Shown here piece after piece: positions 36,001 to 39,000 of a DNA stretch of 64,000 bases; positions within the stretch are counted from its first letter, which is position 1; every line of letters begins with the position of its first letter. Made by a program: the position numbers. The stretch is taken from NCBI RefSeq assembly GCF_057098645.1, contig NZ_CM169472.1; one strand, 5' to 3'.

Positions 36001-39000
36001 AAACCGGCACATTGCTGGGCGTGGTAAGTTCACAAGCGGCGGAACTCTGCGGTCTGAAGGTGGGCACTCCGGTGGTCGTTGGAGGAGGCGACGTGCAGCT
36101 TGGTTGCCTGGGGTTAGGCGTTGTGCGTCCGGCACAAACCGCGGTTCTTGGCGGCACATTCTGGCAGCAAGTTGTAAATTTAGCCGCGCCGGTGACAGAC
36201 CCAGAAATGAACGTGCGCATTAATCCTCATGTTATTCCTGGCATGGTACAAGCTGAATCTATAAGCTTTTTTACCGGACTCACCATGCGCTGGTTCCGCG
36301 ATGCTTTCTGTGCCGAAGAAAAACTGATTGCCGAACGTTTAGGCATCGACACCTATACGCTGCTGGAAGAGATGGCCAGTCGGGTGCCGCCTGGGTCGTG
36401 GGGCGTAATGCCGATCTTCTCCGACAGAATGCGCTTTAAAACCTGGTATCACGCTGCGCCTTCCTTTATTAATTTGTCCATTGACCCGGATAAATGTAAC
36501 AAAGCGACATTGTTCCGTGCGCTGGAAGAAAATGCGGCGATTGTATCAGCGTGTAACTTGCAGCAAATTGCTGATTTTTCGAATATTCATCCTTCATCGT
36601 TAGTCTTTGCAGGCGGAGGTTCAAAAGGGAAATTATGGAGTCAAATTCTCGCTGATGTCTCGGGATTACCCGTCAATATTCCGGTGGTCAAAGAAGCCAC
36701 CGCATTAGGATGTGCCATTGCAGCTGGCGTCGGTGCCGGAATTTTTTCATCAATGGCAGAAACCGGAGAACGCCTGGTTCGCTGGGAACGGACGCACACA
36801 CCAGACCCGGAAAAGCATGAACTTTATCAGGATTCACGCGATAAGTGGCAGGCAGTTTATCAGGATCAGCTGGGGCTGGTTGATCATGGACTGACGACGT
36901 CGTTATGGAAAGCGCCTGGGTTATAGTTTCATTGACAGCCACATCATGATGACCGTGGCTGTTAGTTTTTGAGTATAGTTATTCTTATTTCCCTTCTTTT
37001 AGAACTGGCTTGTTAAATGCCAGCTTGCAGATTCATCCTTCCATCACCAGTAATATATTCAAGGGGAAATTGCTATTTTTCTTAAAGTATTAAGCATAAC
37101 CCTTATTTTATAGCGAATATTCCTAAAGACACTAATGGATGCAAAAGGGGTTTAATATACTTCGATTTTTAGCAATTAGTGCTATTCTTTGTTAAATATG
37201 ATGATGATAATTTTCCTATTGAAAGAAACAGTTTTCTTACTAAGCAACAATAACTCATAGTTCATTTTTAAATAAAATAAGAACTATGCAATTTTTAATC
37301 TATCAATTCGAAAGCATTAGCAAATTAGCCAAATTGACACCTTCCCACCTCCAACTAACACTCAATACAGACCTCTGACAATTTAATAAGTTTCATTTTT
37401 AATGTCTGGCGACTCATCTCTTTCGTGGCTGTATTGTTTGTATATGGAGCGTTTATATGAATAGAATCTATCGCGTGATATGGAATTGCACTCTACAGGT
37501 ATTTCAGGCCTGCTCTGAATTAACTCGCAGGGTAGGTAAAACATCAACGGTTAATTTGCGTAAATCCTCTGGACTGACAACGAAATTCAGTAGATTGACG
37601 CTGGGTGTTTTGCTGGCACTTAGCGGTTCAGTGTCTGGTGCGAGTCTGGAAGTTGATAATGGTCAGATTACCAATATTGATACTGATGTTGCTTATGATG
37701 CCTACCTGGTTGGCTGGTATGGCACTGGAGTGCTTAATATTTTGGCTGGCGGTAATGCCTCCTTAACCACTATTACTACCAGCGTCATTGGCGGTAATGA
37801 GGATTCGGAGGGTACCGTTAATGTTTTGGGTGGCACCTGGCGATTGTATGATAGCGGAAATAATGCAAGGCCTTTAAATGTGGGTCAATCCGGAACGGGG
37901 ACGCTGAATATTAAACAGAAGGGTCACGTCGATGGAGGCTATTTAAGATTAGGTACTCAAGCTGCAGGCGTCGGGACGGTTAATGTTGAGGGAGAGGACT
38001 CGGTTTTGACGACCGAATTATTCGAAATAGGGAGTTACGGTACGGGCTCATTAAATATTACGGATAAGGGTTACGTCACGAGTTCAATAGTCGCCATTTT
38101 AGGATATCAAGCGAACAGTAATGGTAAGGTTGTCGTTGAAAAGGGTGGCGAGTGGCTAATAAAAAATAATGATTCCTCAATTGAATTTCAAATTGGTAAT
38201 CAAGGAACTGGGGAGGCGACTATTCGCGAGGGTGGGCTGATTACGGCTGAAAATACGATTATCGGTGGCAATGCCACCGGTATCGGAACCCTGAATGTGC
38301 AGGATCAAGACTCTGTCATCACGGTACGCAGACTCTATAATGGATATTTCGGTAATGGCAAAGTCAATATTTCCAATAATGGACTGATTAATAACAAAGA
38401 ATATTCATTGGTGGGCGTTCAGGACGGTTCCCACGGTGTCGTCAACGTGACCGATAAAGGGCATTGGAATTTCCTCGGAACGGGCGAAGCTTTCCGCTAT
38501 ATCTATATCGGTGATGCTGGCGATGGTGAACTTAATGTCTCGAGTGAAGGCAAAGTAGATTCGGGAATTATCACTGCGGGGATGAAAGAAACAGGCACAG
38601 GCAACATTACTGTTAAGGATAAGAACTCCGTTATCACTAATCTCGGAACTAATCTTGGTTATGACGGCCACGGCGAAATGAATATCAGTAATGAGGGGCT
38701 TGTTGTCAGCAACGGAGGAAGCTCACTCGGTTATGGAGAAACCGGCGTCGGGAATGTCAGCATCACCACGGGGGGGATGTGGGAGGTCAATAAGAATGTC
38801 TATACCACCATTGGTGTTGCGGGTGTCGGAAACCTCAATATTAGCGATGGCGGTAAGTTTGTATCGCAAAATATTACTTTTTTGGGCGATAAAGCAAGCG
38901 GTATCGGCACACTGAACCTGATGGATGCGACATCATCGTTCGATACTGTGGGTATCAATGTCGGTAATTTTGGTAGCGGTATCGTAAATGTCAGTAATGG

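What the first reader, a model, noticed from the sequence alone, without database searches (positions are those of the whole stretch)
36927..37456. 530-bp AT-rich leader upstream of the autotransporter gene
A long, very AT-rich non-coding region precedes the autotransporter start. This is typical of horizontally acquired adhesin genes and may hold a silenced promoter.
Basis: inference. Interest (0 to 1): 0.2.

Follow-up and report, generated by a model that had tools for sequence, protein, structure and literature searches.

The report
Silenced promoter region upstream of yneO
This AT-rich 530-bp gap is the already-described control region between the E. coli genes lsrK and yneO (an adhesin-type autotransporter): it is bound by the silencer H-NS and the stress regulator MarA, and in this strain it sits in front of a broken gene, so it is ordinary.

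Summary
36927-37456 is exactly the 530-bp spacer between the lsrK stop codon and the ATG of the ESPR autotransporter yneO (ydeK/ydeU, 'ECSE_1600 family'). It is 68% AT, with a core of 76% AT. It is the longest spacer and the AT-richest 530-bp stretch in the window, but only 6th of 35 spacers by GC.

It is not a 530-nt leader. Its parts are:
- the lsrRK intrinsic terminator (36931-36975);
- a near-consensus marbox (37166-37185, minus strand);
- a 148-bp tract of 24% GC;
- a core promoter, TTGACA-17-AACACT (37334-37362), conserved in three lineages;
- a 5'UTR of about 88 nt whose last 45 nt are conserved.

Published work on the near-identical K-12 and ETEC sequences already covers most of this. 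The spacer is one of 78 'promoter islands' and is H-NS-bound in all three ChIP data sets cited. RpoD and RpoS holoenzymes bind it in vitro. MarA binds this exact marbox in ChIP-seq and in vitro at 0.3 uM.

Two things are new here. The marbox and core promoter are conserved in Pseudocitrobacter with the same 166-bp spacing across unalignable AT-rich DNA. The previously predicted promoter (CTGACA-17-TTTAAT) is not conserved.

The gene is a pseudogene in this strain. Verdict: already known, low interest.

The parts
36927..37456 (.). Whole lsrK-yneO intergenic spacer (530 bp, 68% AT)
   Evidence: Present in 4224 of 5426 complete E. coli genomes, mostly at 95-99% identity.
36931..36975 (+). Intrinsic terminator of lsrRK: hairpin 36931-36966, then UUAGUUUUU
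   Evidence: Fold dG -19.9 kcal/mol, z -3.8, 0 of 200 shuffles as good. The stem is invariant in 7 diverse E. coli; one strain has a 3-bp deletion at the start of the U-tract. The simple scan missed it because the upper stem and loop are irregular.
37026..37370 (.). Equivalent of the K-12 'promoter island' 1596197_345 ydeK/lsrK (H-NS-bound in all ChIP studies cited)
   Evidence: PMC3661553 Table 1. Coordinates mapped through NC_000913.3 (version 2 = version 3 minus 1976). GC 0.296.
37166..37185 (-). Marbox (MarA/SoxS/Rob site) ATAGCACTAATTGCTAAAAA; the 15-bp core is at 37168-37182
   Evidence: Exact match to the ETEC H10407 MarA ChIP-seq site 'gcactaattgctaaa', assigned to yneO and bound in vitro at 0.3 uM (PMC5684230). 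The H10407 site at 1717104-1717118 lies in the same spacer. Kept in all 13 E. coli-type locus records fetched and in Pseudocitrobacter.
37186..37333 (.). 148-bp extremely AT-rich tract (GC 0.236) between marbox and -35; presumed H-NS platform
   Evidence: Same length and similar composition in Pseudocitrobacter (GC 0.284), but sequence identity no better than shuffles: 0.581 against 0.575 +/- 0.024. No A-tract phasing.
37334..37362 (+). Conserved core promoter TTGACA-17 bp-AACACT; inferred start near 37369
   Evidence: Top + strand PWM hit. The pattern TTGAC[AG]-17-[AG]ACACT is present at 114-123 bp from the ATG in E. coli, Pseudocitrobacter and the divergent L022 lineage, with variable spacer sequence. 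The start site is inferred, not measured.
37375..37403 (+). Previously predicted promoter CTGACA-17-TTTAAT (Shimada 2014)
   Evidence: PMC3946193 Table 2. Present in E. coli, not conserved in Pseudocitrobacter, and lacks the -11 A.
37412..37456 (+). Conserved 3' part of the 5'UTR, with Shine-Dalgarno GGAG (37446-37449) 7 nt before the ATG
   Evidence: 41 of 45 nt identical between E. coli and Pseudocitrobacter, against 65% identity at third codon positions. No significant RNA structure (z +1.4).
37457..43687 (+). yneO (ECSE_1600-family ESPR autotransporter); a pseudogene in this strain
   Evidence: ESPR, Pertactin, AC_1 and Autotransporter domains in separate ORFs. An IS3-family remnant lies at 39175-40228. 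Annotated as frameshifted with an internal stop in RM9872.

Best explanation
The region is the transcriptional control region of the autotransporter gene yneO. It is not a leader. In order it contains:
1. The lsrRK terminator, which insulates it from upstream transcription.
2. About 190 bp of E. coli-specific AT-rich DNA.
3. A high-affinity MarA/SoxS/Rob site (marbox).
4. A 148-bp tract of 24% GC.
5. A core promoter TTGACA-17-AACACT, with an inferred start about 88 nt before the ATG.
6. A short 5'UTR with a conserved ribosome-binding region.

Shown in the literature for near-identical sequences: H-NS occupies the spacer in vivo; RNA polymerase with sigma70 or sigmaS binds it in vitro; MarA binds the marbox in vivo and in vitro.

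Inferred: H-NS polymerised on the AT-rich tract keeps the promoter silent under laboratory conditions. The marbox lies too far upstream (about -194) for classical class I or II activation. A MarA-family protein bound there most likely modulates or relieves silencing rather than recruiting polymerase directly.

In this particular strain the output is moot, because yneO is inactivated by an IS remnant and frameshifts.
For: - Identity and synteny.
- Terminator.
- AT profile.
- H-NS binding and promoter-island status in K-12: PMC3661553. H-NS and RpoD SELEX: PMC3946193. RpoS SELEX peak, mapping to about window 37037: PMC5493296.
- MarA ChIP-seq and in vitro binding (EMSA) at the identical 15-mer in ETEC H10407: PMC5684230. 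The site was located in the same spacer and is the only match in the 64-kb window.
- Phylogenetic footprint, marbox: it is kept at its contact positions and varies at non-contact positions in Pseudocitrobacter (2 hits in that locus against 0.07 expected).
- Phylogenetic footprint, promoter: the -35 and -10 hexamers and their 17-bp spacing are kept in three lineages while the spacer sequence differs.
- Spacing: the distance from marbox to -35 is identical (166 bp) in two genera, across DNA that is no more similar than shuffles.
Against: - No transcription start-site or expression data could be retrieved. The Cappable-seq supplement held is truncated, so the promoter assignment rests on conservation only.
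- The -10 hexamer AACACT is weak (3 of 6), and the simple consensus scan found no promoter at all.
- The marbox geometry fits no known activation class, and no core promoter sits next to it on either strand. MarA binding could therefore be without regulatory effect.
- The H-NS and polymerase data come from K-12 and the MarA data from ETEC, not from this strain.
- The inter-genus comparison rests on essentially one other genus plus one distant allele whose marbox has a mismatch and a different spacing (199 bp).
Confidence: 0.65

Rival explanations
1. The functional promoter is the one predicted by Shimada et al. (CTGACA-17-TTTAAT, 37375-37403; start about 37410; 47-nt UTR). On this reading the conserved TTGACA...ACACT block is something else, for example a regulator site.
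For: An RpoD holoenzyme SELEX peak lies in this spacer, and this hexamer pair was the authors' best match (PMC3946193). It scores similarly in my PWM (10.2 against 10.9).
Against: It is not conserved in Pseudocitrobacter or in L022, whereas TTGAC[AG]-17-[AG]ACACT is. It lacks the critical -11 A. SELEX-chip resolution cannot separate two sites 40 bp apart.
Confidence: 0.2
2. The marbox is an orphan or otherwise-directed MarA site. It either has no effect on yneO or controls an unannotated transcript that starts next to it, on either strand.
For: It lies 166 bp from the -35, outside class I and II geometry. Only 15 of the 33 MarA ChIP peaks lay near a sigma70 peak (PMC5684230). A weak minus-strand promoter-like site, TTAACA-18-TAAAAA, overlaps it.
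Against: The site, its orientation and its distance to the yneO promoter are conserved in another genus where the upstream neighbour is a different gene. No promoter-like element sits at a conserved offset beside it.
Confidence: 0.25
3. One reading: a long transcribed leader holding a regulatory RNA or attenuator, made by read-through from lsrK or from a far-upstream promoter such as TTCATC-16-TATATT near 37032-37059.
For: The RpoS SELEX peak maps to about 37037. A promoter-like site is there.
Against: There is a strong terminator directly after lsrK. No Rfam family matches. The upstream 240 bp has no counterpart in Pseudocitrobacter. The region between marbox and promoter is not conserved in sequence. 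The proximal UTR is unstructured.
Confidence: 0.07
4. Functionless AT-rich DNA drifting in front of a gene that is decaying in many strains.
For: yneO is a pseudogene here and in K-12, O55:H7, ETEC H10407 and others. IS1 and IS5 insertions occur in the spacer. Its GC is within the spacer distribution.
Against: Discrete blocks are conserved across genera against a 35% third-position divergence. Protein binding has been demonstrated experimentally. The gene is intact in several strains.
Confidence: 0.08
5. The spacer encodes a small protein: the 30-aa ORF at 37286-37378.
For: The ORF is open in all 7 aligned strains.
Against: There is no Shine-Dalgarno sequence. Substitutions split about evenly between synonymous and non-synonymous (reading of the alignment). 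The ORF overlaps the conserved promoter, is absent from Pseudocitrobacter, and is not annotated in MG1655. The small protein YneP is encoded elsewhere.
Confidence: 0.02

Closest known systems
E. coli K-12 'promoter islands' (Shavkunov 2009; Panyukov & Ozoline 2013, PMC3661553)
   Same: This spacer is the ortholog of island 1596197_345 ydeK/lsrK. It is AT-rich, binds RNA polymerase and H-NS, and is associated with a gene predicted to be foreign.
   Different: With simple consensus and PWM scans I did not reproduce an unusual density of promoter-like sites. One discrete promoter is conserved, which suggests a normal promoter embedded in the island.
H-NS-silenced cryptic adhesin and autotransporter genes of E. 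coli (yfaL, ycgV, ypjA, yeeJ, upaC; from my own knowledge of Roux 2005 and Allsopp 2012)
   Same: A large AIDA-type autotransporter that is silent in the laboratory, has an AT-rich upstream region bound by H-NS, and is frequently a pseudogene.
   Different: yneO expression or derepression in an hns mutant is not documented in anything I could read. Here there is an additional distal marbox.
mar/sox/rob regulon promoters (marRAB, micF, mlaF, xseA, ycgZ-ymgABC)
   Same: A near-consensus 20-bp marbox bound by MarA with top-class affinity. It is in the 'backward' orientation, as in class I promoters such as marRAB.
   Different: Class I and II marboxes are centred at about -62, -52 or -42. This one is centred at about -194 relative to the inferred start, and no adjacent core promoter exists.
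AraC-family anti-silencers acting against H-NS (VirF, ToxT, Rns/CfaD, GadX; from my own knowledge)
   Same: An AraC/XylS-family protein site at the upstream edge of an H-NS-coated AT-rich tract in front of a surface-protein gene.
   Different: MarA, SoxS and Rob are not known to act this way. No functional test exists for this locus.

Membership tests
H-NS-bound promoter island / xenogeneic-silenced promoter region | AT content well above the genome average over several hundred bp | tested here: met
   68.1% AT over 530 bp; 70.4% over 37026-37370; 76.4% over 37186-37333.
H-NS-bound promoter island / xenogeneic-silenced promoter region | H-NS occupancy in vivo | not testable with these tools
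   Published for the K-12 ortholog in all three ChIP data sets cited (PMC3661553 Table 1, column H = 'A'). An H-NS SELEX site is also reported.
H-NS-bound promoter island / xenogeneic-silenced promoter region | Abnormally high density of promoter-like sites on both strands | tested here: inconclusive
   The strict consensus scan found 0 sites against 2.4 expected. The PWM gives about ten mediocre sites per strand. The original definition uses PlatProm, which was not available.
H-NS-bound promoter island / xenogeneic-silenced promoter region | RNA polymerase binds, but little productive transcription results | not testable with these tools
   RpoD and RpoS holoenzyme SELEX peaks are published. 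No transcript data could be retrieved.
H-NS-bound promoter island / xenogeneic-silenced promoter region | Association with a horizontally acquired gene | tested here: inconclusive
   Gene GC is ordinary (0.497). However, the gene is absent from 22% of genomes and reported absent from B2 strains, and it lies in a different context in Pseudocitrobacter and L022.
mar/sox/rob regulon promoter | 20-bp asymmetric marbox AYnGCACnnWnnRYYAAAYn | tested here: met
   ATAGCACTAATTGCTAAAAA matches every specified position except the penultimate Y. It is the only hit to the 15-bp core pattern in the 64 kb.
mar/sox/rob regulon promoter | Binding by MarA, SoxS or Rob | not testable with these tools
   Published for the identical 15-mer: a ChIP-seq peak and in vitro binding at 0.3 uM in ETEC H10407.
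mar/sox/rob regulon promoter | Class I or class II position and orientation relative to the -35 and -10 hexamers | tested here: not met
   The orientation is backward (class I-like), but the site lies 166 bp upstream of the conserved -35. No core promoter is found within class I or II distance on either strand.
mar/sox/rob regulon promoter | Transcription responds to MarA, SoxS or Rob | not testable with these tools
   No report found. yneO appears only in the ChIP table.
Long regulatory 5' leader (riboswitch or attenuator) | The region is transcribed as part of the mRNA | tested here: not met
   There is a terminator at 36931-36975. The conserved promoter is only 123 bp from the ATG.
Long regulatory 5' leader (riboswitch or attenuator) | Conserved RNA structure or a known RNA family | tested here: not met
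   The best Rfam hit is a eukaryotic lncRNA at E = 0.38. The UTR fold has z +1.4.
Rho-independent terminator (lsrRK) | GC-rich hairpin followed by a U-tract directly after the stop codon | tested here: met
   dG -19.9 kcal/mol, z -3.8, followed by UUAGUUUUU. The stem is invariant in the aligned strains; one strain has a 3-bp deletion at the start of the U-tract.

The most novel reading that the evidence does not exclude
The unit 'marbox, then about 148 bp of roughly 25% GC DNA of fixed length but free sequence, then the TTGACA-17-AACACT promoter' is a conserved module that travels with this autotransporter gene. In it a MarA/SoxS/Rob protein bound at about -194 acts as an anti-silencer of an H-NS filament. 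This would be a mode outside the class I and II rules, and it would couple antibiotic or oxidative-stress signalling to expression of a surface adhesin.
Probability: 0.2. Interest if true: 0.45.

Novelty: already known. Interest (0 to 1): 0.15.

Why it matters
It matters little for this window, because the gene behind the region is dead in this strain and the region's main properties are already published for K-12 and ETEC: AT-rich, H-NS-bound, polymerase-binding and MarA-binding.

The modest added value has three parts:
- A better-supported core promoter for yneO than the one in the literature.
- Evidence that the MarA site is under selection across genera, at a fixed distance from that promoter.
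- A cheap, well-defined test of whether MarA-family regulators can counteract H-NS at a distance. A positive result would link the mar/sox/rob stress response to adhesin expression in strains that keep an intact gene.

Tried and rejected
- **Rfam.** An E-value-threshold scan of 36000-38500 gave only a spurious eukaryotic lncRNA hit.
- **Promoter/terminator scan.** It found no promoter. Its only terminator-like hit lies inside lsrK, and it missed the real terminator.
- **30-aa ORF at 37286-37378.** Rejected as coding. YneP, which I first suspected, is encoded between yddA and ydeM.
- **H-NS 10-mer TCGATAAATT and CpxR box scans.** Hits in the spacer are no better than background. ydeK is listed as 2.2-fold up on CpxR overproduction, together with hns itself, so the effect is probably indirect.
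- **A-tract phasing.** Not significant.
- **Class I or II core promoter next to the marbox.** Searched by eye and by PWM in three lineages; none found.
- **Start-site data.** The Cappable-seq GTF supplement held is cut at 12% and holds nothing for this locus. The supplement held for the MarA paper has nothing on yneO.
- **First intergenic-GC table.** It used annotation from a record that is out of register with the window beyond 39175. It was redone and the rank fell from 2nd to 6th.
- **Genome-collection scan for orthologs.** It returned only 3 loci, two of them contaminant or mis-binned contigs.
- **Protein searches.** They show a narrow ortholog group; the next relatives are at 40% identity or less. 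L015, L018 and L019 turned out to carry E. coli-type spacers. The upstream regions of L023 and L024 are GC-rich and have no marbox.
- **Literature searches by b-number or with loose terms.** They returned mostly noise.
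Full report
**Where the window comes from.** The 530-bp region matches 4224 of 5426 complete E. coli genomes, mostly at 95-99% identity, and is 100% identical to E. 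coli O145 RM9872. The window as a whole is a close relative of that strain, not the same record. It carries an extra 1.05-kb IS3-family remnant inside the autotransporter gene, a 3.8-kb Tn3-family transposon further downstream, and a different first 3 kb.

The annotated context is lsrACDBFG on the minus strand, then lsrR, lsrK, the spacer, an 'ECSE_1600 family' ESPR autotransporter, and hipB-hipA. In K-12 the autotransporter is the pseudogene yneO, formerly ydeK/ydeU.

**Observation.** The coordinates are exact. The lsrK ORF with its stop ends at 36926, and the autotransporter ATG is at 37457, opening an ESPR signal peptide.
- GC is 0.319 overall. It is 0.22-0.25 in 100-bp windows at 37150-37300 and 0.236 over 37186-37333.
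- It is the longest spacer in the window and the lowest-GC 530-bp stretch of the 64 kb.
- My first spacer table was out of register beyond 39175. The corrected table puts the region 6th lowest of 35 spacers (mean GC 0.382, sd 0.08).

The AT-richness is therefore real and above the spacer average. It is not exceptional next to the other long spacers of this neighbourhood, which precede ydeI, the fimbrial operon, ydeP and ydeN.

**Anatomy.**
1. Directly after the lsrK stop there is a hairpin at 36931-36966 followed by UUAGUUUUU. Its dG is -19.9 kcal/mol and z is -3.8, with none of 200 shuffles as stable. The stem is invariant in seven diverse E. coli; one strain has a 3-bp deletion at the start of the U-tract. 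This is the lsrRK terminator.
2. At 37166-37185 on the minus strand lies ATAGCACTAATTGCTAAAAA, a marbox that matches every specified consensus position but one. It is the only match to the core pattern in the window.
3. A 148-bp tract of 23.6% GC follows.
4. TTGACA (37334-37339), 17 bp, then AACACT (37357-37362) is the top-scoring + strand promoter candidate.
5. The last 45 nt before the ATG carry a GGAG Shine-Dalgarno sequence 7 nt from the start codon.

Nothing in Rfam matches, and the proximal UTR is not structured. The only internal ORF (30 aa, 37286-37378) has no ribosome-binding site and no synonymous bias, overlaps the promoter, and is absent in the other genus.

**What is already published for this spacer.**
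- Panyukov & Ozoline (PMC3661553) list '1596197_345 ydeK(-)/lsrK(-)' among 78 promoter islands of K-12. It is associated with a gene predicted to be foreign and bound by H-NS 'according to all studies' (Grainger, Oshima, Kahramanoglou). Using the MG1655 record, the island maps to window 37026-37370.
- Shimada et al. found an RpoD holoenzyme SELEX peak and an H-NS SELEX site here. They proposed the promoter CTGACA-17-TTTAAT, which is window 37375-37403 (PMC3946193).
- The same group found an RpoS holoenzyme peak, which maps to about window 37037 (PMC5493296).
- Sharma et al. mapped a MarA ChIP-seq peak in ETEC H10407 to the marbox gcactaattgctaaa upstream of yneO. They showed binding of purified MarA at 0.3 uM, their strongest class (PMC5684230). 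I confirmed that this site (1717104-1717118) lies in the H10407 lsrK-yneO spacer at the position equivalent to window 37168-37182.

**New comparative evidence.** The ortholog family is narrow. Beyond E. coli-type sequences, the next relatives are at 40% identity or less.

*Pseudocitrobacter vendiensis* has an ortholog at 78% amino-acid identity, but it lies downstream of bluF- and bluR-like genes, not lsrK. Its 308-bp spacer is also AT-rich. Homology with E. coli begins at the marbox:
- TTTTTAGCTTTTTGTGCTGT keeps every contact position and differs at the free positions. That locus has 2 marbox hits against 0.07 expected.
- TTGACA-17-GACACTCAAAACAGAC matches TTGACA-17-AACACTCAATACAGAC, with a different spacer sequence.
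- 41 of the last 45 UTR nucleotides are identical, against 65% identity at third codon positions.
- The distance from marbox to -35 is 166 bp in both genera. Yet the 148 bp in between are no more similar than shuffled sequence (0.581 against 0.575 +/- 0.024). Length and composition are kept, but sequence is not.

*A third, distant allele* (L022; 37% amino-acid identity; sited between ydeN and tam in an Escherichia-like genome whose flanking genes are about 83% identical to E. coli) keeps TTGACG-17-AACACT 114 bp from its ATG. It also has a one-mismatch marbox in the same orientation 199 bp upstream of the -35.

All 13 E. coli-type locus records fetched keep both elements. The one variant seen, GCATTAATTGCTAAA in strain ES1, is identical to the grxA/ybjC marbox, which MarA also binds at 0.3 uM. 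Shimada's CTGACA-17-TTTAAT is not conserved outside E. coli.

**Mechanism.**
- *Shown, in the literature:* H-NS occupancy, polymerase binding in vitro, and MarA binding in vivo and in vitro.
- *Shown here:* the terminator, the composition, the conservation of the marbox, promoter and ribosome-binding region, and the marbox lying outside class I and II geometry with no adjacent core promoter.
- *Inferred:* the conserved TTGACA-17-AACACT is the yneO promoter, with a start near 37369 and a UTR of about 88 nt. H-NS on the AT-rich tract silences it. A MarA-family protein at about -194 modulates that silencing.

The last step is the weakest. The site could be an orphan.

**Verdict.** The region is a real, correctly delimited, AT-rich regulatory spacer. 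'Leader' is a misnomer. Its main properties are already known. In this strain it precedes a gene inactivated by an IS remnant and frameshifts. Interest is low. The only reading with some novelty is a conserved distal-marbox anti-silencing module, which is testable with simple reporters.

Noticed in passing
window 14846-16145: The marRAB operon (minus strand) and its own marC-marR control region lie in the same window, about 21 kb from the yneO marbox. The regulator and this target are therefore near neighbours on the chromosome.
   Followed up: no
window 39175-40228: A roughly 1.05-kb IS3-family remnant (HTH_Tnp_1 and rve ORFs) interrupts the autotransporter gene. It is absent from the otherwise near-identical RM9872 record.
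   Followed up: partly
window 51845-55633: A 3.8-kb Tn3-family transposon (resolvase at 52020-52652, transposase at 52633-55599) is inserted at the 3' end of the FimH-like fimbrial adhesin gene (51013-51933). It is absent from RM9872.
   Followed up: partly
L010 (E. coli CUVET21-147), equivalent to window ~37078; L011 (E. coli L37): An IS5 is inserted in the spacer about 90 bp upstream of the marbox, in a strain whose autotransporter gene is intact. This recalls IS5 activation of other H-NS-silenced operons. In strain L37 an IS1 replaces most of the spacer and the 5' part of the gene.
   Followed up: no
L013 283-297 and 2717-2731; L016: In Pseudocitrobacter the autotransporter lies just downstream of bluF- and bluR-like genes. 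A second perfect marbox sits upstream of the bluF-like gene. This parallels the E. coli ycgF<>ycgZ MarA target listed in the same ChIP-seq table.
   Followed up: partly
L021/L022 (GCA_009932295.1): A divergent, truncated ESPR autotransporter (37% identity) sits between ydeN and tam, in the opposite orientation. There is no lsr operon, hipBA or fimbrial operon between them. This suggests the interval is a hotspot for independent insertion of related autotransporter cassettes. The spacer has no match in complete E. coli genomes.
   Followed up: partly
L012, L014: E. coli-type lsrK-yneO sequence appears in a contig binned as 'Candidatus Nanosynbacter' and in an 832-bp contig of a 'Marinomonas sp.' assembly. 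These are most likely mis-binning or contamination in public records.
   Followed up: no
window ~43898-44638: hipB is intact, but hipA is reduced to an internal fragment. The annotation comes from RM9872 and was mapped to the window. The antitoxin is therefore left without its toxin.
   Followed up: no
window 35334 vs 35376: The lsrK start is annotated 42 nt further downstream in RM9872 (516 aa) than in K-12-type records (530 aa). The longer ORF is open in the window.
   Followed up: no
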